From: Candidatus Hodarchaeota archaeon
Lineage (GTDB): Archaea > Asgardarchaeota > Heimdallarchaeia > Hodarchaeales > Hodarchaeaceae
Assembly: GCA_029856365.1 (NCBI GenBank)
Contig: JAHQWW010000053.1
Location: 1-24,987 of the forward strand
DNA length: 24,987 bases
Direction: 5' to 3'
A program made the position numbers and the translations under genes. This document shows positions 4,759 to 13,840 of the stretch, piece by piece. Under the pieces are notes generated by a model. That model was given only the letters and a program-made list of their open reading frames with translations, made no database searches and had not been told where the DNA came from. Within the stretch, counting starts at the first letter, position 1. Each line of letters begins with the position of its first letter.

Positions 4759-6096
4759 TCAGAATCTTGTATCTGAAACTCCCCATGCCTCCATCGCTCG
4801 TACAAGCTCGGGGTATTCTTCTTCATGTTCTTCAACGTAATCTTCGAAGTCTTCACTTGCAGCAGCTAAATCCTTCATCCCAATATCTATAGCTTGACGG
4901 AAAGCTTTAGCTCCAGCAACAGGACCATCAGGATGAGCATGAATCCCTCCACCTGATCCAATCATTATATCTCTTCCAAGATCCTGCATAACTCTTAGAA
5001 CCATACCAGGAGTAATTCCACCAGAAGGCATGGGTAGGGTCGGTTTTAAGTGATGCATCCGATAACGGTGAGCTTTGGCAATACCAAGATATTTTTCCTT
5101 TAAATAAGGAGCTTTTCCATAGGGCGCGGGATAAACACAAATGTCAGCTCCAGCTAGCCGAACAAGCTTACCCATTATTAGAAAAGATGAAACACCTGAA
5201 TATGGCGACTCATAAAAAGCTCCAGCGAAGTCCATGTGAGCGAGGATTGGCAATTTGACTTCTTTATCCTCTACTAACATCCTCAATGCAGGAAGCCCAA
5301 CGACTAAATAATTCAGCATTAATGCGTTTCCTCCAACATCTTGGACAGCTAACGCGTTTTCCTTCAATTTAGTAATTTTATCGGTGATATTCACAGTATA
5401 GAGAGTTTCCTCTCCCGTTTCTTCACGTACTTTGTCTACTGCTTCCATCATAAGAGGAACTCTGTCAACAATTTTGTTATAATCCATGTCTGCAATAAGT
5501 TCATCATCTTTAACAACATCACATCCACCCAAAGCAGCAGAATAAAATAGTTGAGCTCCAACCTCTGGAGTCCATCCACTACAGGGTTTTATCATATTGT
5601 TCAGTAAAGGTCTATCAGGCACCTTGAGAATCTTACGTATTCCTTCAATACCAAATTTCGGTCCTTTAAAATTCTTGATCCACTTTTTAGGAAATCGAAG
5701 ATCCAATAATTTTAACTTCCCACCCATTGAAATATTCCCAATAGTAGCTGTTAGCATGAGACCAATCTGATCTGTTTGATTAATAGCAGGAAAAGCGATT
5801 TGATAGATATAATTACGTTCCTCAACGTTTTTAGGAACTTCAAACTCGTACGAGGGAACCTCATAGAGACCAATTACTTTAGCACCAAATTTTGATCGTA
5901 GTTCAGGAGTGTTCGCAGGAACAGGTACCCAGGTACCAGTTGACTGCTCACAGGCAGCTGCTCTCCCTATAAACCATGGATCCATCCTAGGTCCAAGTTG
6001 AACCATATAAGTACCAATAATGTATTCCTCAGGATTAATGCCCTCTTGAAGAGCTTCTTCTAGAGGATCATACTGAGCAAAGATATCTTGAGACAT
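4759..6096 (-). CDS. RuBisCO-like protein (form IV RLP)
   Basis: CEQSTGTW, GPKFGIEGIR, IKPCSG, GGCDVVKDDE, PMPSGG, GSGGGIHAHPDG. Positions equivalent to RuBisCO K177, R295 and H327 are C, M and V, so this is not a bona fide RuBisCO. Confidence 0.92.
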   Translation of the reverse strand: MSQDIFAQYDPLEEALQEGINPEEYIIGTYMVQLGPRMDPWFIGRAAACEQSTGTWVPVPANTPELRSKFGAKVIGLYEVPSYEFEVPKNVEERNYIYQIAFPAINQTDQIGLMLTATIGNISMGGKLKLLDLRFPKKWIKNFKGPKFGIEGIRKILKVPDRPLLNNMIKPCSGWTPEVGAQLFYSAALGGCDVVKDDELIADMDYNKIVDRVPLMMEAVDKVREETGEETLYTVNITDKITKLKENALAVQDVGGNALMLNYLVVGLPALRMLVEDKEVKLPILAHMDFAGAFYESPYSGVSSFLIMGKLVRLAGADICVYPAPYGKAPYLKEKYLGIAKAHRYRMHHLKPTLPMPSGGITPGMVLRVMQDLGRDIMIGSGGGIHAHPDGPVAGAKAFRQAIDIGMKDLAAASEDFEDYVEEHEEEYPELVRAMEAWGVSDTRF

Positions 6097-6243: not shown

Positions 6244-9200
6244 GTGTTCCGAAAGATTATGGGTGGAGTAGGATTATTTATCATTGTGTTTCTGATAATG
6301 GGTTCAATCGGAGACTCAATCCTGCATAATGATCGTACCAATAACCTATCTCAGTTATCAGATTCAAATTATTCAGGTATTGAAAGTGAATCTGATGCAT
6401 TTATTGAAAGGGAGTCCCCAACGGAAGTTTTTGTTAACAATAACTTCAGAGATATCCCATTTGAATACATGTATCCAGTAGATCCAAAAATTCGGCCACC
6501 ACTAGCCAGTATTAAGTCAAGTGCTCCTACTAGCAAAAAAAGCGTTATTACAACAGGGATAATCAAAATTGCAGTCTTATTAGTCTGTTTCACTGATGTG
6601 AGCTTTGATAGTGCTCATAATCAAGCTTATTATTCAAACCTCATTTTCAATCATAGTAATCCGAAAAGTGTTGCTAGCTACTATTGGGAGAACTCATATG
6701 GTCAATTGAATATAACGGGAGAAATTATTGGAGGAATCTACCGGTCTTCGCACGCTAGGCGGTATTGGGGAGAAGATTCAGCATCAGGAAACGTTTTTCC
6801 CCAAGTTGATGACAAGAATGACTATATCTATAACTTAGTCGTTGAAGGAGTTCAATTGGCTGATCCAACAGTCAATTTCACGAGATTTGACGAAAACAGA
6901 GACAGTATCGTTGATTATCTACTAGTTGTTCACGCTGGAGATGCTCAGGAAGAAACTGGGATTTCCAATCATATTTGGTCTCATCGCTGGAGTATTCAAA
7001 CAAAATGTGCTGTTGATAGTGTTGTTGTGAAAGATTATACCATGTGTGCAGAGACTTCTCCAATGGGTACTTTTGCTCATGAATTGGGGCACGCAATCGG
7101 GGATTTACCTGATTTATATGACACTGACTACTCTTCAGATGGAATTGGACGCTGGGGGCTTATGGGAGCAGGGGCATGGAATTATAATGAAACTTCAGGT
7201 TCAGGAGAAAGCCCTGGAGATACGCCTGCTCATTTTTGCGCTTGGTCGAAAATCAAAATGGGATGGCTCACGCCTACCATCGTTACAGCCAACCAATTTG
7301 GAATAACTCTTCCAGCCATTGAGACATCAAATCACAATAGTGTCATGAAGATATTCTTGTCAAACGAAACGAACAGCGTGACTCTGCAGGAGTACTTTCT
7401 AGTCTGTTTCCGCAATCAAACTGGATTCGATAGTGCTCTCCCAGGTTCAGGCATCCTTATTTGGCATATTGATGAATGCAATATATATGAAGGGAATGAT
7501 GGAGAAAACCGTAAATTAGTTGACTTAGAAGAAGCAGATGCAGTAGACCCTTGGGGCTTTATATGGGAACAACTCGATTATTATAATAGCAAGCCTTTAG
7601 TAGGAACACCTCATTCAGATGATAATGGTAATATCACTGACCCTTGGTCACCAGGAACGATTTTCTCTGTAGGATCTACCCCAAATAGTGACAGTAATGA
7701 TGGTGTAAAAACTTATATCAATGTAAGTGTTTCTGATATCGATATTATTGATATTAGCGTTGCATATGATCCGTTTCCTTGGGATTATACTCTACTTGTA
7801 ATAGATCAACCAGCTACCAGTATAATTGATGATGAACCTTCTATTATAGAACATAGCTCTGGTAGCTTCTCTGTTGTTTGGCAATCAAATAGGACAACAG
7901 GTGATTGGAATATCTATGGTTCTCAAACTAAGGATGCAGGTCAATCATGGGACCTTGCAGTTCCAATCACTTACAATTCTTCTAATGATTATAGTCCCTC
8001 ACTTATATATTGGTATCCTCCGGCATATTGGGCTCGAACCTTTATCCCAGATATAGTAGATAGACCCATTCCTGCTGGAGATATGAGTTTAAGTACTCAA
8101 CCACCATTACATTATATAGTGGCATTCGTATCTGACCGAACTGGCAATCCTGATATTTTTATTACATTAAGTTCAGATTTCAGTACTTGGAAACAACCAG
8201 TTCGAATAACAAATGATTCTGCTTATGATTTAGATCCGTGTTTAATTCAGACACCTAGTGGAGATTTAGGCTTATTTTGGACTTCAAATCGGACTGGTAA
8301 TTATGAAATCTACTTCATTGAAGAACCATGGAACACCTCAAATATTGTACAAATCACCAATAATGTAGTTTTAGATCGTGGTCCCTCTTATTGTCTCTCA
8401 CAGAATGATACTCACCTATTGGCATTTGAACGAAAAGTCGGAGGCACCTCAAGCATTCAGCTTCTTATTTCAACAGACTTAATTTCGTGGATTTCCTCAC
8501 CAATTGCATGTACAAATCCCGTGGTTGATTCAACTGAACCTTCGATTGTTGAACGTGAAGATGGAACGCTATTAATCACGTTCACCCAATCTTCTGGATC
8601 AAAAGAAGAAATAAATCAGATAGTTTCTTCCTATTGGAACGATTGGTCTTCTCATCTGGCCATGGGTTTTCCCAAGAATAGCAGTAGTCCATCCTTAATA
8701 GAAGCGAAGTGTGGGGCCTTATTCATGGTATATGGCACCTATGATGCTACCCAGATCCCACACGTATACCTAATCCATACTACTTTATGCTACCGTTTTG
8801 GTGTAGGAATAGATTATCCTCGAGATACTGGTAACACATTTTTCAATCCATCTCGTGTCGAACAAGGCTCTGATTGGGTCTTTACAGGAGAAATGCAATT
8901 AAATGATTCAGACTTCACTGTACCTGCTTATAATGTTTCACTGATTGTCACGGATACAAAAAACACTTGGCATGAACGTGATGATGAGATCATCCTTGAG
9001 GATCAGTTGAATCAATCGGATCCTGGCCCACCCTTCGAGATAGAACTGGATCCAGTAATAGGGACTGGTAGGTTTAGCATTCCATTACACGAATTTCATC
9101 TGATATATCCCGAAGAATTACCAACAGCGACCATTCTCTGTTTTCGGTTAGAATGGTGGTACAAAGATATTAATGAACAGTTAAAGAATATTAATGGATC

Positions 9201-10206
9201 CATCTATATTGAATTATTACCTCTTCAGGATCATATCCAATTTGAAGGAAATATTCCAATTCCAACAAGTGAAAATTCTCCTTTAACAATTCAAGCTCCT
9301 ATTATCCAAGGATATGTCAATTATGGCGTAGAATCTGTTACTCTTGCATTATATGATATTAAAGATGAGCCACCAATCGCTGAAAATGGTCTTCAATCTC
9401 AACCAAAAATTGGGAGTATTTCCAAAAGAGATATTGTACCTTGTTCTCAAAAGACAGTTGATACAGCCTTAAACGCTATTATTACTCCTTATTCTCAACA
9501 AACTATTGTTTTCAATGAATTAACAAAAATTAAAGGCGTTTGGACAACATATCTTCGGAATCTAAGAGACAACACAATTACCAGAGTTGAAGCTACCTCA
9601 AATGGAATATATCCTCGGAAAACTGCTGAACTCTATATCCAAAAATCTCCATGGGATACTAATCCTCCTCGGTTAATTCATATTGAACCAATTACTACTC
9701 AAACTGAAGAATTCCCAATAGTATTCTCAGAGCAAATAATCGATGATCAAGGTAGTTTCAATTATGGTATTGATGAAACCTCAATCAAATTTTCTTATAA
9801 AGTGTTGAATGACCAAGGATCATGGTCTCATGTTAGTTACCTTGATAGTGATCCGAACTGGTCCAAAACTGGTAATATATACAATTACACTCTTAATTTA
9901 AGTGGACTCGAAATACCAATCTATATTGCATATTATTGGTCTACTAATGATTTAGCAAACCCAAGTAATCGTGCTACTGATGGAGATCAAGAAACTCCAT
10001 ATTATATAGGAGTATTTCCAAGGGAAACTGATACTTATACCACTTCAATCTATTATACAACTACCACCACCGCAACAACAGCTACTTCCGCTACTTCTAC
10101 TGCTAATACTTCTACAGAACCAAGTGCTCCTATAGGATTTGAATTCTTGATAATAATCGGGACATTAGGAATAACAATAGTTCTCTATAGAAAAAAGCGT
10201 CAATAG
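6244..10206 (+). CDS. Secreted, cell-surface-anchored M6 family (immune inhibitor A-like) zinc metalloprotease with TolB/PD40-like beta-propeller and C-terminal sorting signal
   Basis: N-terminal hydrophobic segment; SVASYYWENSYGQL, VVHAG, IWSHRW, HELGHAIGDLPDLYD (7078 on), WGLMGAG Met-turn, PAHFCAWSK, GILIWHIDE. Repeats of D..PS...F.SNRTG..IY follow. C-terminus is a Thr-rich linker, PIGFE, TM helix and RKKRQ. GTG start after AGGTG SD. Confidence 0.9.
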   Translation: MFRKIMGGVGLFIIVFLIMGSIGDSILHNDRTNNLSQLSDSNYSGIESESDAFIERESPTEVFVNNNFRDIPFEYMYPVDPKIRPPLASIKSSAPTSKKSVITTGIIKIAVLLVCFTDVSFDSAHNQAYYSNLIFNHSNPKSVASYYWENSYGQLNITGEIIGGIYRSSHARRYWGEDSASGNVFPQVDDKNDYIYNLVVEGVQLADPTVNFTRFDENRDSIVDYLLVVHAGDAQEETGISNHIWSHRWSIQTKCAVDSVVVKDYTMCAETSPMGTFAHELGHAIGDLPDLYDTDYSSDGIGRWGLMGAGAWNYNETSGSGESPGDTPAHFCAWSKIKMGWLTPTIVTANQFGITLPAIETSNHNSVMKIFLSNETNSVTLQEYFLVCFRNQTGFDSALPGSGILIWHIDECNIYEGNDGENRKLVDLEEADAVDPWGFIWEQLDYYNSKPLVGTPHSDDNGNITDPWSPGTIFSVGSTPNSDSNDGVKTYINVSVSDIDIIDISVAYDPFPWDYTLLVIDQPATSIIDDEPSIIEHSSGSFSVVWQSNRTTGDWNIYGSQTKDAGQSWDLAVPITYNSSNDYSPSLIYWYPPAYWARTFIPDIVDRPIPAGDMSLSTQPPLHYIVAFVSDRTGNPDIFITLSSDFSTWKQPVRITNDSAYDLDPCLIQTPSGDLGLFWTSNRTGNYEIYFIEEPWNTSNIVQITNNVVLDRGPSYCLSQNDTHLLAFERKVGGTSSIQLLISTDLISWISSPIACTNPVVDSTEPSIVEREDGTLLITFTQSSGSKEEINQIVSSYWNDWSSHLAMGFPKNSSSPSLIEAKCGALFMVYGTYDATQIPHVYLIHTTLCYRFGVGIDYPRDTGNTFFNPSRVEQGSDWVFTGEMQLNDSDFTVPAYNVSLIVTDTKNTWHERDDEIILEDQLNQSDPGPPFEIELDPVIGTGRFSIPLHEFHLIYPEELPTATILCFRLEWWYKDINEQLKNINGSIYIELLPLQDHIQFEGNIPIPTSENSPLTIQAPIIQGYVNYGVESVTLALYDIKDEPPIAENGLQSQPKIGSISKRDIVPCSQKTVDTALNAIITPYSQQTIVFNELTKIKGVWTTYLRNLRDNTITRVEATSNGIYPRKTAELYIQKSPWDTNPPRLIHIEPITTQTEEFPIVFSEQIIDDQGSFNYGIDETSIKFSYKVLNDQGSWSHVSYLDSDPNWSKTGNIYNYTLNLSGLEIPIYIAYYWSTNDLANPSNRATDGDQETPYYIGVFPRETDTYTTSIYYTTTTTATTATSATSTANTSTEPSAPIGFEFLIIIGTLGITIVLYRKKRQ

Positions 10207-11223: not shown

Positions 11224-13221
11224 TCAGAAGTTTGTTTCATTGTTTCTTTTGGTAGAAAACTCATAAAGAACTTCTTGTTTCTGCTTAGGAGTAATTTCAT
11301 ATAATTTAAATACTAAATCGTCAATCTCTTTCTCAAGCAATTGAATTCTTTGGTCTAGCTGTTCTATATTCAAGTTTTTCTCTTTAAATCGTTGTACCAA
11401 AGAATATTTCCGTTGATACTGGGATTGAAGGACTTTAACTTTGGTACAAACTTGATTGGCTAAAATTACCTCATCTTCAATTACTGGCATTTTAATAGGA
11501 AGACGTAGGAACTTTTTCTGAGTGAAATGAGGGAAATCCTGACGATGAGGGTCTGCAAATTTAATGAAAAAATATTTGTTCATTAATCGAGAATTTAACA
11601 CTCCCATAATATATTCTAAGTTGACGGGGGCATTTTTCTTCAATTTAAAGAGATATACAACTTGATTAACCCATCTGTTATCATAATCAATTACAGTTCT
11701 AATTCCACGCCCAGTTTTTCTAAGTAATAGCTTAGGGCCTTGATAAAGGGCTTGATCTTTGTAATTAATTCCAATACGTTTAGGATCGATATATTTTTGA
11801 TTTTTAATATAATACCTCTGGATTTGATGCCCTACAAGAAAAGGATAATCCCTTTCAGGTTGTTTAGGGGTGTTGAACACAATGAAATCCGTTTTATCAT
11901 GTTCTGTAACTTCTTCGTGGCACTCTGGATTATTACACTGCTTTGTTTTTACTCTATTTTTCAAAAGCCTGGGTGGAGAAGACCACCAACCACAGGATGA
12001 ACACTGAACAATTTTGCCCTTTTTATTAAGTTCTACACCCCTAGCGTTCTTGACAAAATCGCCTAAAGGTTTCACCTGGATTTTTTCGTGATGAAGATCT
12101 TTTTCTATAGTTTCTCTTAATTCTTCATTTCCAATTGAAAAAATATCAAATTGACCTTCAGGATTTAAAAGAAATCGATTTTGGGAACAAGAAACATTGG
12201 GTAGAGAAGATAAAGATTGATGTCCTTCCTTCAGAAGCCTTTTTATTGCTGATGGAATATGCTGAACAACGTCAAGAAGATGATCAGGAGTCATTGATCC
12301 TTTTTCAGTAATAATAATCATACAAGGTTGTGTTATTCCAGAAAAAATTTTTTCTCCTAAATTAATAATTTGTATTATTTTGCATGTATTTAAGATTAAT
12401 TTTCGTATATCTTTATAGTTTTCATTTAAAAGCAAAGTGTTTGGAATAACAAAGCCTAAACGGCCACCTTCTCTCATAGCTGCCAAACTTCTTTCAATAA
12501 AAAGACTCCAAGAGTCAACCTGTTGAGTTCCAACCCTATAGAAATTTAATAATTCGGAAGAAAATAGAGCTGCTCCCCATGGAGGATTCCCAAGGATTAC
12601 GTCGAACTTTCCATCTGTCTCTGGAAATACGGTCTCCCAAGGCATCGGATTAATATTAGCAGAAATCTGGAAATCTTCAGTTAATTTGGCTCTTAAAATC
12701 TGTTTAATCCGTTTTTCAATTATTGAAATCTCTCTTTTCTCTTCTTTGCTAGAAAATGTCTCACTTCCGTTGATGAATAACTTTTTATACCGAAGACGAA
12801 ATTTTTCCAATGAATAAGCGTCACATTGATGATCATAAGTAACTGGAGGAATCAGTGCGTTAAAAACTTTGAAATTTACGTTGAAATCTTGACAATTAAG
12901 GTTTGTTTGAGTCCTCTCAATCTGAGTTTTGTCAATGTCGATTCCATATAATTGGTTAGCAATTATTGACTTTCTAACTTTCTCTAGAGGTTCATTAGGT
13001 TTTTTTATTGATTTAAAATTAGATAATAAGAACTCTAAAGCTCGTACAAGAAATACTCCCATTCCACATGCAGGATCAAGAATTTTTAAGGAAAAAATCC
13101 TGTCATGACTGGAGTTCTTAAGGAAATAGCCAATCGTTTGGTCAATAATGTAATTCACAATGTAATCTGGTGTATAATATTGGCCTAGAATTTTACTTTT
13201 TACTCCAGTTTGACTTGTCAT
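11224..13221 (-). CDS. Solitary gamma-class DNA amino-methyltransferase (M.TaqI/Eco57I-like, with TaqI-C specificity domain)
   Basis: GQYYTPDYIV (motif X), ILDPACGMGVFL (motif I), LYGIDID, FDVILGNPPW (motif IV), FIERSL...GGRLGFVIP, PKLLLRKT, YIMGVLNSRL, EIDDLVFKLYEIT. No N-terminal nuclease domain. Confidence 0.9.
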   Translation of the reverse strand: MTSQTGVKSKILGQYYTPDYIVNYIIDQTIGYFLKNSSHDRIFSLKILDPACGMGVFLVRALEFLLSNFKSIKKPNEPLEKVRKSIIANQLYGIDIDKTQIERTQTNLNCQDFNVNFKVFNALIPPVTYDHQCDAYSLEKFRLRYKKLFINGSETFSSKEEKREISIIEKRIKQILRAKLTEDFQISANINPMPWETVFPETDGKFDVILGNPPWGAALFSSELLNFYRVGTQQVDSWSLFIERSLAAMREGGRLGFVIPNTLLLNENYKDIRKLILNTCKIIQIINLGEKIFSGITQPCMIIITEKGSMTPDHLLDVVQHIPSAIKRLLKEGHQSLSSLPNVSCSQNRFLLNPEGQFDIFSIGNEELRETIEKDLHHEKIQVKPLGDFVKNARGVELNKKGKIVQCSSCGWWSSPPRLLKNRVKTKQCNNPECHEEVTEHDKTDFIVFNTPKQPERDYPFLVGHQIQRYYIKNQKYIDPKRIGINYKDQALYQGPKLLLRKTGRGIRTVIDYDNRWVNQVVYLFKLKKNAPVNLEYIMGVLNSRLMNKYFFIKFADPHRQDFPHFTQKKFLRLPIKMPVIEDEVILANQVCTKVKVLQSQYQRKYSLVQRFKEKNLNIEQLDQRIQLLEKEIDDLVFKLYEITPKQKQEVLYEFSTKRNNETNF

Positions 13222-13296
13222 CCTATAAATCGTACATCTGTTCCCCTATAATTGTTTTGTGAAAAAAAATGTTGAGAGGAATTTATAGCATTTTTT

Positions 13297-13330
13297 AAAA
13301 AAAGAAGAAAAAAAAGAGGGATAAAAAGGG
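13297..13330 (-). terminator. Strong oligo-T terminator after the histone gene
   Basis: Minus strand carries several consecutive T-runs (CCCTTTTTATCCCTCTTTTTTTTCTTCTTTTTTT) directly after the stop codon. Confidence 0.65.
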
Positions 13331-13338
13331 TTTTTCCT

Positions 13339-13767
13339 TTACGGCATTATATCAGTATCTTTCAAAGTTTTTCTCTTCGCATGTCGTGCTATGTCTATAG
13401 CTCCCTTAGCCAGTGTGTAGCAGTAAGCTTCTAATTGTTTGTTAAGATAGTCTACTGCATCAGCTGACACTCGTGATGCTCCTGATTCTCGGATAACTCT
13501 TTCCACGCGTGCTTTGGCGAACGCACGTGATTTCGGGCCAGTAGGGCTCATTTTTGGGGAACCAATTTTTGATACAGCCAGCTTTATATCATCTGCTTGT
13601 ACTGTTTTACGACCAGCAGTATTAGCTAGGTTAATTGCCGTTTTTGATGATTTCCCGCCAAACTCCGCACAAAGCTCGTCCATACGCACAATAGCTTTAG
13701 CGGATATTCTTTCTGCACCTGCAGATTTCATAATTGCTTCAATTCGTGCTTTTGCAAATGTTGCCAT
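13339..13767 (-). CDS. Archaeal histone doublet (two tandem HMf-type histone folds)
   Basis: Fold 1: FAKARIEAIMKSAGAERIS...AGRKTVQADDIKLA. Fold 2: FAKARVERVIRESGASRVS...ARHAKRKTLKDTDI. Both keep the canonical HMfB R19-to-R52 spacing and RKTxxxxD. AGGTGA SD upstream. Confidence 0.93.
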   Translation of the reverse strand: MATFAKARIEAIMKSAGAERISAKAIVRMDELCAEFGGKSSKTAINLANTAGRKTVQADDIKLAVSKIGSPKMSPTGPKSRAFAKARVERVIRESGASRVSADAVDYLNKQLEAYCYTLAKGAIDIARHAKRKTLKDTDIMP

Positions 13768-13840
13768 TTTCTTTTCACCTTTTCTGCATTTCTACATTAT
13801 AAGTTTTGTAGAAAATCTAGATCATTCACTCATTCATCAG

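What the first reader, a model, noticed from the sequence alone, without database searches (positions are those of the whole stretch)
13339..13767. Asymmetric histone doublet in which both tetramerisation interfaces look degenerate
Seen: two full-length-alpha2 histone folds, both starting FAKAR (suggesting intragenic duplication), joined by a short Pro/Gly/Lys linker. In HMfB numbering, fold 1 has H49->T and R10->A but a complete alpha3 (D59, L62). Fold 2 keeps H49, D59 and R10, but alpha3 ends at DIMP (L62->P, then stop). Fold 1 alpha2 is small and polar (GGKSSKT) where fold 2 is bulky (YCYTL). Each alpha2 has one Cys near the dimer crossing (C32, C36). Known: H49/D59/L62 build the four-helix bundle of archaeal hypernucleosomes, and doublets occur in Methanopyrus, haloarchaea and giant viruses. 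Inference: this is an obligate pseudo-heterodimer that may oligomerise only head-to-tail, or cap hypernucleosomes. That would bear on the origin of heterodimeric eukaryotic histones if the host is Asgard.
Basis: partly seen in the sequence, partly recalled or inferred. Interest (0 to 1): 0.75.

Follow-up and report, generated by a model that had tools for sequence, protein, structure and literature searches.

The report
Asymmetric histone doublet of Hodarchaeales
This is a real, conserved gene of one group of Asgard archaea (Hodarchaeales) that fuses two different histone folds into one basic DNA-binding protein whose two ends for joining other histones are unequal; the gene family has been mentioned in the literature but never characterised, and it is a late, lineage-specific fusion rather than an ancestor of eukaryotic histone pairs.

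Summary
Window 13339-13767 (-) encodes a 142-aa, pI about 10 protein with two HMf-type histone folds.

The short helix 3 of fold 2 is not an error. 31 of 36 orthologues end KDTDIMP. The stop lies at the same codon in 15 genomes, using TAA, TGA or TAG, with unrelated DNA downstream.

The host is Hodarchaeales. The full-length gene was found in 16 of 21 genomes of one genus-level group and nowhere else among 300 Asgard genomes searched.

AlphaFold2 gives a confident intramolecular pseudo-dimer (pLDDT 92.9). "Both interfaces degenerate" is only half right. Fold 1's bundle face has no His and evolves fast. Fold 2's face is cut short but almost invariant. Fold 1 keeps the gyre-stacking residues of the solved Hodarchaeal histone HHoB; fold 2 has lost them.

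My best reading (about 45%) is a polar chromatin unit that joins through fold 2 and limits or caps oligomers. A head-to-tail polymer is not excluded.

No conserved Cys pair exists, since the fold 1 Cys is present in only 13 of 36. Both folds nest among Hodarchaeales singlets, so the fusion is lineage-specific. Stevens 2021 and Hocher & Warnecke 2024 already noted the family, and this scan flagged it in other genomes.

The parts
13339..13767 (-). Histone doublet gene, 142 codons plus a TAA stop
   Evidence: ORF list and translation. Two PF00808 / NF043032 domains. 35 full-length orthologues at 75-96% identity.
13561..13767 (-). Fold 1 (residues 1-69): alpha1 6-15, alpha2 23-50, full alpha3 58-68. 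The bundle face has no His. HHoB-type stacking residues are kept (R28, E31, E35, K42, K62).
   Evidence: AF2 secondary structure. Position table against 24 singlets of the genus. Mean column entropy is 0.62 bits.
13618..13620 (-). Codon ACT = T50, at the slot of HMfB H49 / HHoB H51
   Evidence: Sequence. Orthologues have A15 T13 S7 N1 here, while singlets of the genus have H in 23 of 24.
13525..13560 (-). Linker (residues 70-81, SPKMSPTGPKSR), basic and rich in Ser/Thr-Pro. Predicted unstructured, with lower confidence.
   Evidence: P71, K72, P75, T76 and K79 are invariant. Mean pLDDT is 74 for residues 71-80, and residues 69-84 have no helix.
13342..13524 (-). Fold 2 (residues 82-142): alpha1 85-94, alpha2 102-129, alpha3 reduced to one turn. 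All DNA-contact slots are kept. Stacking slots are lost (Y107, K110, A114, M141).
   Evidence: Mean column entropy is 0.31 bits, half that of fold 1.
13381..13383 (-). Codon CAT = H129, the retained bundle His of fold 2
   Evidence: Invariant in 36 of 36 orthologues.
13339..13353 (-). C-terminal D139-I-M-P142 plus the stop. Pro sits at the slot of HMfB L62 / HHoB L64.
   Evidence: KDTDIMP in 31 of 36 orthologues. The stop is at the same codon in 15 loci, with three different stop codons.
13775..13802 (-). Candidate expression signals: a TATA-like TTATAAT about 32 nt upstream of the ATG and a GGTGA motif at -13 to -9
   Evidence: Read from the sequence. Not tested, and no transcript data were available.
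13294..13327 (-). T-rich runs directly after the stop, a likely archaeal oligo-T terminator separating the doublet from the downstream methyltransferase gene
   Evidence: Read from the sequence. This is inference.

Best explanation
Shown here: the gene encodes a conserved, basic (pI 9.96, net charge about +12) single-chain histone pseudo-dimer of one Hodarchaeales genus-level group. Both loop DNA-binding sites are intact: R20/K54/T55 in fold 1 and R99/K133/T134 in fold 2.

Also shown: the two halves have specialised in opposite directions from an ordinary Hodarchaeales singlet.
- Fold 2 keeps every DNA contact and the core of the dimer-dimer four-helix-bundle face (D/E125, I126, H129, R132, D139), all nearly invariant.
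- Fold 2 lacks helix 3 beyond one turn (the HHoB L64, Q67 and K68 slots) and the gyre-stacking residues.
- Fold 1 keeps a full helix 3 and the stacking residues.
- Fold 1 has lost the bundle His, Tyr and Glu, and two DNA-contact basic residues (A11, Q57). It evolves twice as fast as fold 2.

Inferred: the protein wraps about 30 bp like any histone dimer, but it is a polar unit. It joins a neighbouring histone dimer, either a singlet dimer or a second doublet, through the conserved fold 2 face. Its fold 1 face propagates poorly. It would therefore limit oligomer length, acting as a built-in capstone on singlet hypernucleosomes or as a two-doublet, tetrasome-like particle, rather than building endless hypernucleosomes by itself.
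For: - Domain calls and a confident pseudo-dimer model with 1F1E as the best solved fold match.
- Charge and pI.
- Position-by-position table against the experimentally defined HHoB interfaces (preprint 10.1101/2025.05.24.653377, sections 8-10), with 24 singlets of the same genus as controls.
- In that table the singlets have Y44 23/24, I48 24/24, H51 23/24, L64 24/24 and K68 23/24.
- Fold 1 has none of Y44, I48 or H51 (I48 is replaced by F/L/A).
- Fold 2 keeps I48 and H51 but has S at Y44 and P-stop at L64.
- At the stacking slots K29/E32/D36/K63, fold 1 has R36/E34/E26+D9/K36 and fold 2 has Y/K/A/M.
- Entropy is 0.62 bits for fold 1 against 0.31 for fold 2, and only 0.14 bits for the last seven residues.
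- The stop position has been maintained through three stop codons.
- The capstone concept for histone paralogues that cannot propagate tetramerisation is in the literature (Stevens et al. 2020, as summarised in PMC8775648). The HHoB authors also invoked it for the other Hodarchaeal variants.
Against: - No binding, oligomerisation or expression data exist.
- Conservation of H129, R132 and D139 could partly reflect fold stability. The Arg-Asp clamp is intramolecular (my own knowledge of histone folds).
- Fold 1 keeps D60, a hydrophobic residue at 63 and K67. With fold 2's H129 and D/E125, these would give one complete half of a heterotypic fold1:fold2' bundle, so a head-to-tail polymer remains possible.
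- I could not check on coordinates whether the stacking face kept by fold 1 lies on the side a terminal dimer would need.
Confidence: 0.45

Rival explanations
1. Polar head-to-tail polymer. Doublets join fold1-to-fold2' through a heterotypic four-helix bundle, analogous to H4-H2B in the eukaryotic nucleosome. This would build a directional, probably open (non-stacked) doublet-only fibre.
For: The residues are complementary. Fold 2 supplies the His and Glu slots (H129, D/E125) that fold 1 lacks. Fold 1 supplies the L64 and K68 slots (L63, K67 in 33 of 36) that fold 2 lacks. The variable fold 1 slots (43, 46, 50) are exactly those that would face fold 2's missing helix-3 end.
Against: Only half of the usual two-fold contact set would exist. 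Y44, which is needed for the HHoB open state, is absent from both folds. Fold 1's I48 slot varies between F, L and A, which is unexpected for a specific conserved interface.
Confidence: 0.2
2. Ordinary hypernucleosome subunit. The substitutions are tolerated, and the doublet co-polymerises freely with the roughly nine singlets of the genome. It would differ mainly in stability or stoichiometry because the two halves are tethered.
For: The genome has many singlet paralogues with which it could mix. All loop DNA-contact residues are intact. HHoB-type histones already bind with low cooperativity.
Against: His at the bundle slot is present in 23 of 24 singlets of the genus but in 0 of 36 fold 1 sequences. 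L64 and K68 are near-universal in singlets and absent from every fold 2. Such fixed, opposite losses maintained across the genus point to selected asymmetry.
Confidence: 0.2
3. Non-wrapping role. The protein acts as a monomeric DNA bender or bridger, or as a histone-fold partner of another protein, in the way alpha3-truncated bacterial histones bend DNA without tetramerising.
For: Fold 2's helix 3 is truncated as in Bd0055-type histones, and there are weak sequence hits to 8FVX and 8CMP (E about 2e-3). A conserved Ser/Thr-Pro-Lys linker could be a regulated or groove-binding element.
Against: Both alpha2 helices are full length, unlike the bacterial type. Both folds are far closer to nucleosomal Hodarchaeal histones (E 1e-14 to 1e-15 to 9QV5) than to bacterial ones. 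The invariant His/Asp/Ile bundle core in fold 2 would be unexplained.
Confidence: 0.1
4. Artefact: a frameshift, a premature stop, or a mis-joined pair of tandem singlet genes.
For: Tandem singlet genes do occur in this genus and elsewhere in Asgard genomes.
Against: The same 142-aa frame is found in 16 genomes and about 35 protein clusters from NCBI, JGI, ENA and Logan. The stop is at the same codon with three different stop codons.
Confidence: 0.01

Closest known systems
HHoB and the other tail-less Hodarchaeales singlet histones (PDB 9QV5, 9QV6, 9QV7; Ranawat et al. 2025)
   Same: These are the closest solved relatives of both folds (E 3e-14 and 1.5e-15). They share the FA-x-AR start, the R-x-S and RKT DNA loops and the alpha2 length. 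An ordinary singlet of the same genome is 51-54% identical to each fold.
   Different: The doublet is two folds in one chain. Fold 1 lacks Y44, I48 and H51. Fold 2 lacks Y44, L64, Q67 and K68 and the stacking residues K29, E32, D36 and K63.
HMk, the Methanopyrus kandleri histone doublet (PDB 1F1E)
   Same: A single-chain double histone fold forming a pseudo-dimer. It is the best solved structural match (TM 0.81, rmsd 2.7 A over 138 columns).
   Different: Only 25% identical. HMk is classed with the acidic doublets (PMC13260811), whereas this protein has pI about 10. The Hodarchaeales folds nest among Hodarchaeales singlets, so the fusion is independent. The 2026 review's label 'M. kandleri-type' (PMC13088155) fits the architecture, not the descent.
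Halobacterial acidic doublets (HpyA / HstA type)
   Same: Two fused histone folds of about 143 aa.
   Different: Those have a median pI of 4.7 and are paired with acidic miniature histones (PMC13260811). This one is strongly basic and co-exists with about nine basic singlets.
Capstone histone paralogues of Methanobacteriales (Stevens et al. 2020)
   Same: Substitutions at tetramerisation positions are proposed to stop oligomer extension (summarised in PMC8775648).
   Different: Those are singlets that act after heterodimerising. Here the asymmetry is hard-wired into one chain, with one good face and one poor face. No functional test exists for this protein.
Alpha3-truncated bacterial histones (Bd0055 / HBb; PDB 8FVX, 8CMP) and halobacterial 'miniature' histones
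   Same: Helix 3 is reduced to a stub in fold 2.
   Different: The bacterial and miniature forms also have a shortened alpha2 and form homodimers. Here alpha2 is full length (28 residues) and only one of the two folds is truncated.
Eukaryotic and giant-virus heterodimer pairs and doublets (H3-H4, H2B-H2A; Melbournevirus 7N8N, 9CVT)
   Same: An asymmetric pair with non-equivalent bundle faces. Fold-level matches have TM 0.78-0.83.
   Different: Sequence identity is 17-23%. There are no extra helices or tails. Neither fold shows a specific affinity to one core histone class: fold 2 hits H4 no better than an ordinary singlet does, and fold 1 hits no eukaryotic histone at E <= 0.1.

Membership tests
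HMf-type (nucleosomal) archaeal histone fold, PF00808 / NCBIfam NF043032 | Profile match above the curated cut-off | tested here: met
   PF00808 scores 92.2 bits (cut-off 21.4) over two stretches. NF043032 scores 126.3 bits (cut-off 50) over two stretches.
HMf-type (nucleosomal) archaeal histone fold, PF00808 / NCBIfam NF043032 | Helix-loop-helix-loop-helix fold with a long central alpha2 | tested here: met
   The AF2 model has helices at 6-15, 23-50 and 58-68, then 85-94, 102-129 and a 3-residue helix at 137-139. Fold 2's alpha3 is a stub.
HMf-type (nucleosomal) archaeal histone fold, PF00808 / NCBIfam NF043032 | Loop DNA-binding residues (HMfB R19, K53, T54; HHoB R21, K55, T56) | tested here: met
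   R20/K54/T55 and R99/K133/T134 are invariant in 36 sequences.
Hypernucleosome-forming histones (HMfB / HTkA / HHoB type) | Bundle residues on both faces of the dimer (HMfB L46, H49, D59, L62; HHoB I48, H51, D61, L64) | tested here: not met
   Fold 1 has His in 0 of 36. Fold 2 has Pro-stop at the L62/L64 slot in 35 of 36. Each face lacks one defining residue.
Hypernucleosome-forming histones (HMfB / HTkA / HHoB type) | Stacking residues on both monomers (HHoB K29, E32, D36, K63) | tested here: not met
   These are kept in fold 1 (R28, E31, E35, K62) and replaced in fold 2 (Y107, K110, A114, M141).
Hypernucleosome-forming histones (HMfB / HTkA / HHoB type) | Forms continuous oligomers on DNA | not testable with these tools
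   This needs reconstitution with MNase, EMSA or cryo-EM.
Double histone fold proteins (histone doublets) | Two histone folds in one chain that pair intramolecularly | tested here: met
   Two domains. AF2 pseudo-dimer with pLDDT 92.9. Fold match to 1F1E and to single-chain H2B-H2A chimeras. This is a prediction, not a solved structure.
HMk-type doublets, by common descent | Folds group with HMk rather than with local singlets | tested here: not met
   Both folds lie inside the Hodarchaeales singlet clade (branch 97/99*). They are 51-54% identical to a local singlet against 25% to 1F1E. HMk itself was not in the tree.
DUF1931 / bacteria-type doublets | DUF1931 profile match, low pI | tested here: not met
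   No DUF1931 hit at E <= 1. The pI is 9.96. The match to 1WWI is only TM 0.62 at 12% identity.
Capstone histone variants | Loss of tetramerisation residues on a face that would otherwise propagate the oligomer | tested here: met
   At the sequence level only: fold 1 has lost Y44, I48 and H51 relative to 24 singlets of the genus.
Capstone histone variants | Shortens histone oligomers when incorporated | not testable with these tools
   This needs mixed reconstitution or in vivo footprinting.

The most novel reading that the evidence does not exclude
The doublet is a naturally polar nucleosome-limiting unit. Either two doublets join fold2-to-fold2' into a discrete tetrasome-like particle, or one doublet caps a singlet stack. 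Its fold 1 stacking face would be turned to the previous gyre, and its dead bundle face and stack-less fold 2 surface turned outward. That would be the first archaeal histone with hard-wired directional asymmetry that sets particle size, evolved independently in the archaeal order closest to eukaryotes.
Probability: 0.25. Interest if true: 0.8.

Novelty: new variant of a known kind. Interest (0 to 1): 0.55.

Why it matters
Eukaryotic nucleosomes are size-limited because their histone pairs are obligate heterodimers with non-equivalent bundle faces. How that arose from archaeal homodimers that polymerise without limit is an open question.

This gene shows that the archaeal order closest to eukaryotes has fixed a tethered pair whose halves divided the labour. 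One half keeps DNA grip and the bundle core. The other keeps stacking and a full helix 3. Selection has held that arrangement across a whole genus.

It is not an ancestor of H3-H4 or H2A-H2B, because it is a late, genus-restricted fusion. It is, however, a natural experiment on the same design problem. The protein is small, basic and easy to express alongside HHoB, whose structures are now available, so the capping or tetrasome hypothesis can be tested directly.

The existence of the family is already published. What is added here:
- the residue-level asymmetry measured against HHoB;
- evidence that the truncation is selected;
- the distribution of the gene;
- the finding that the fusion is local.

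Tried and rejected
- **Complex prediction with two copies of the doublet.** It returned no verdict (score 0.00, controls not run). It counts neither for nor against self-association.
- **Intragenic duplication versus fusion of two paralogues.** The ML trees place the two folds apart. The AU test does not reject a fold1+fold2 clade (p 0.29), so this is unresolved.
- **DNA-level repeat.** An earlier scan note reported one at the two FAKAR sites. By eye in this window it is about 17 of 24 bases, no more than the shared peptide requires.
- **Disulfide idea.** I rejected it as a conserved feature, because C33 is present in 13 of 36 orthologues. The distance in the model could not be measured, as coordinates are not exposed.
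- **Special H4-likeness of fold 2.** Rejected by a control: an ordinary singlet gives the same H4 E-values.
- **P0055, a 47%-identical doublet with His and a full helix 3 in both folds.** It looked like a possible less-derived orthologue. Its folds fall among singlets, not with fold 1 or fold 2 of this family, so it is probably a separate fusion. Its DNA could not be fetched.
- **The five genomes of the genus without the gene.** They are 70-86% complete. In the two of them with a close RuBisCO orthologue (G213, G192), that gene, which lies about 7 kb from the doublet in this window, sits on short contigs or at contig edges. Absence there is therefore not shown.
- **Fahrner et al. 2001 on HMk.** The paper is not held, so I make no claim about which HMk fold forms its crystal dimer.

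Full report
**1. What is there**

Window 13339-13767 on the minus strand is a 142-codon ORF. It matches Pfam CBFD_NFYB_HMF twice (E 2.5e-26) and NCBIfam archaea_histone twice (E 4.3e-37).

The protein is basic: pI 9.96, 27 Lys+Arg against 15 Asp+Glu. Both halves and the linker are basic on their own.

Upstream lie a TATA-like TTATAAT and a GGTGA motif. Downstream of the stop are long T runs before the next gene. These signals are read from the sequence only.

**2. Is the observation right?**

Yes, in every detail. Residue positions were mapped on HMfB and, better, on HHoB, the Hodarchaeales LC3 histone. HHoB is the closest solved relative of both folds (E 3e-14 and 1.5e-15).

- Fold 1 (residues 1-69) has T50 at the bundle-His slot and A11 at the HMfB-R10 slot. 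It has a full helix 3 with D60 and L63.
- Fold 2 (residues 82-142) keeps R90, H129 and D139 but ends D-I-M-P-stop, with Pro at the L62/L64 slot.

AlphaFold2, run on an alignment of 36 orthologues, gives a confident intramolecular pseudo-dimer (mean pLDDT 92.9, pTM 0.86). Both alpha2 helices have 28 residues, and fold 2's helix 3 has three residues. The best solved fold match is the Methanopyrus doublet 1F1E (TM 0.81), followed by single-chain H2B-H2A constructs and Melbournevirus doublets.

**3. Is the truncation real?**

A word-index search found about 35 full-length orthologues at 75-96% identity. Nearly all are 142 aa. They come from NCBI, JGI, ENA and Logan, and the named ones are Hodarchaeales/Hodarchaeota.

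- 31 of 36 end KDTDIMP.
- In 15 orthologous genomic loci the stop follows the same codon, but it is TAA, TGA or TAG.
- The downstream DNA of those loci is unrelated and carries no helix-3 remainder in any frame.

This rules out a sequencing error. It shows that the short end has been maintained by selection.

**4. Where does it occur?**

Among 300 genomes of the phylum, the full-length gene was found in 16 of 21 genomes of the window's own genus-level group. It was found in no other family, including two genomes of the same order and about 55 of the same class.

The five genomes of the genus without it are 70-86% complete. In the two of them that carry a close orthologue of the nearby RuBisCO gene (G213, G192), that gene sits on a short contig or at a contig edge. 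The gene may therefore be core to the genus.

An exhaustive HMMER search of 1.84 billion cluster representatives found one cluster for this family. Other, much more distant doublets also turned up.

**5. Origin**

- The two folds are 38% identical to each other. They are 51% and 54% identical to an ordinary singlet of the same genome.
- In ML trees both folds lie inside the clade of the main Hodarchaeales singlets (branch 97/99*). Each sits on a long stem, and they are not sisters.
- The AU test does not reject a tree in which they are sisters (p 0.29).
- FA-x-AR opens the singlets too.

The fusion is therefore local to Hodarchaeales and independent of HMk and of the halobacterial doublets. 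Whether it began as an internal duplication or as a fusion of tandem paralogues is unresolved. Tandem singlet genes exist in the genus.

**6. The asymmetry, measured**

I took the residues that the HHoB cryo-EM study assigns to DNA binding, dimer-dimer contact and gyre stacking (preprint 10.1101/2025.05.24.653377). I tabulated them for fold 1, for fold 2, and for 24 singlets of the same genus as a control.

Dimer-dimer slots:

| HHoB slot | Singlets (n=24) | Fold 1 (n=36) | Fold 2 (n=36) |
|---|---|---|---|
| Y44 | Y 23/24 | T/S/A... | S (34) |
| E47 | E/D 23/24 | variable (eight residues) | D/E |
| I48 | I 24/24 | F/L/A | I (32) |
| H51 | H 23/24 | A/T/S/N, never His | H (36) |
| R54 | R 24/24 | R | R |
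| D61 | D 24/24 | D | D |
| L64 | L 24/24 | L/F/V/I | Pro, then the chain ends |
| K68 | K 23/24 | K (33) | absent |

Stacking slots (K29, E32, D36, K63):
- Fold 1 keeps R28, E31, E/D35 and K62.
- Fold 2 has Y107, K110 (a charge reversal), A114 and M141.

DNA slots:
- Fold 2 keeps all of them.
- Fold 1 has A at the K12 slot and an invariant Q at the K58 slot.

Rates: mean column entropy is 0.62 bits in fold 1, 0.31 in fold 2 and 0.14 in the last seven residues.

"Both interfaces degenerate" therefore needs correcting. Fold 1's face looks relaxed. Fold 2's face is short but among the most constrained parts of the protein.

The proposed Cys pair is not a conserved feature. C116 is invariant, but C33 is present in only 13 of 36.

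The alpha2 crossing is complementary. Fold 1 has an invariant G37, and fold 2 has an invariant C116-Y117-T118-L119. This fits a dedicated intramolecular pairing, but that is inference.

**7. How it most likely works**

Shown: a basic, conserved, single-chain histone pseudo-dimer with intact loop DNA-binding sites and two non-equivalent ends.

Inferred: it binds about 30 bp like a histone dimer and engages a neighbour through the constrained fold 2 face. Its fold 1 face, which lacks His and Tyr, propagates poorly. It would thus limit oligomer length, either as a cap on singlet stacks or as a two-doublet, tetrasome-like particle. I put this at about 0.45.

A head-to-tail polymer is the main rival (0.2). 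Fold 1 supplies exactly the L64 and K68 slots that fold 2 lacks, and fold 2 supplies the His and Glu slots that fold 1 lacks. Free co-polymerisation (0.2) and a non-wrapping role (0.1) remain possible.

The one complex prediction I could run gave no verdict and is not used as evidence.

**8. What is known already**

- Stevens et al. 2021 mark a doublet in a Hodarchaeota genome (PMC8775648, fig. 3e).
- Hocher & Warnecke 2024 note doublets in Hodarchaeales and their high pI, and state that nothing is known of their function (PMC10919886).
- A 2026 review lists Asgard doublets as 'M. kandleri-type' (PMC13088155).
- The 2026 survey of archaeal histones has only acidic doublet clusters (PMC13260811).
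- The HHoB paper and a 2026 Asgard chromatin preprint do not mention doublets.
- This scan has also flagged the same family in several other genomes.

The existence of the family is therefore not new. The residue-level asymmetry, the selected truncation, the distribution and the local origin were not found in the papers I could search.

**9. Relevance to eukaryotes**

The relevance is by analogy only.
- Fold 2's weak matches to H4 (E 3e-4 to 1e-2) are the same as those of an ordinary singlet.
- Fold 1 matches no eukaryotic histone at E <= 0.1.
- The gene is genus-restricted and nested among local singlets.

**10. Context**

The gene sits between a P-type ATPase and a solitary Eco57I/TaqI_C-type N6-adenine methyltransferase. 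In this subclade a Na/Ca exchanger is inserted next to the ATPase.

This order holds in 13 of 15 orthologous loci with enough flank. Across those loci the methyltransferase has diverged to 38-77% identity, against 80-97% for the doublet. Since the ATPase is syntenic too, and T runs and separate TATA-like boxes lie between the doublet and the methyltransferase, I read this as general synteny rather than as an operon.

Noticed in passing
window 11224-13221 (-): A solitary 665-aa gamma-class N6-adenine DNA methyltransferase (Eco57I MTase + N6_Mtase + TaqI_C, with a Cys-rich insert and no nuclease domain) lies 117 nt downstream of the doublet on the same strand. The adjacency holds in 13 of 15 orthologous loci. 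The MTase has diverged to 38-77% identity while the doublet stays at 80-97%. T runs and separate TATA-like boxes lie between the two genes.
   Followed up: partly
L038 1486-1956 (+) and L040 (G146:C2:339585-339974; G170:C58:53145-53537): A second, very different Asgard histone doublet of 155-156 aa, 26-27% identical, with both helix 3 full length. It occurs in two genomes of another family of the phylum. Representatives are P0064, P0078 and P0151. Its two folds group with each other across genomes. The taxon was not identified.
   Followed up: partly
P0055 (Logan run SRR14699982, 3-kb contig; no DNA fetched): A 150-aa doublet, 47% identical, with His in both folds (QHSGRKT, KHSHRKT), full helix 3 in both, and an SPPK linker. 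Its folds fall among Hodarchaeales singlets, not with this family's folds, so it is probably an independent fusion.
   Followed up: partly
L011 1411-2550 (+) (G000:C131), with L062 and L063: A histone fold fused to a long C-terminal extension that ends in a Lys/Arg-rich tail (365-390 aa). It is conserved in three genomes of the genus and is probably the histone-Roadblock/LC7 fusion mentioned by Hocher & Warnecke 2024.
   Followed up: no
L002 1411-1713 (+) (G000:C36), with L050 and L055: A divergent singlet histone lineage with Tyr instead of the bundle His (ASYAGKKT). It forms a separate, well-supported clade (97/97*) in three genomes, and could be another tetramerisation-altered paralogue.
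   Followed up: no
L006 (G000:C142), with L059, L061 and P0056: Singlet histones with Lys/Ala/Pro-rich N-terminal tails. P0056 also has Asn at the bundle-His slot, and its helix 3 (DDIKLALSKI) resembles that of fold 1.
   Followed up: no
P0039 (ENA, 93 aa): An ORF whose N-terminal half looks like a short-chain dehydrogenase and whose C-terminal half is identical in type to fold 2 (...CYTLARGAIDIARHAKRKTIKDTDIMP). It is likely an assembly chimera on a 537-bp contig.
   Followed up: no
window 4759-6096 (-) and 6244-10206 (+): A RuBisCO large-subunit homologue with a 53-57% identical paralogue in most genomes of the genus. Next to it is a 1320-aa protein with a Peptidase_M6 domain plus BNR repeats.
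   Followed up: no
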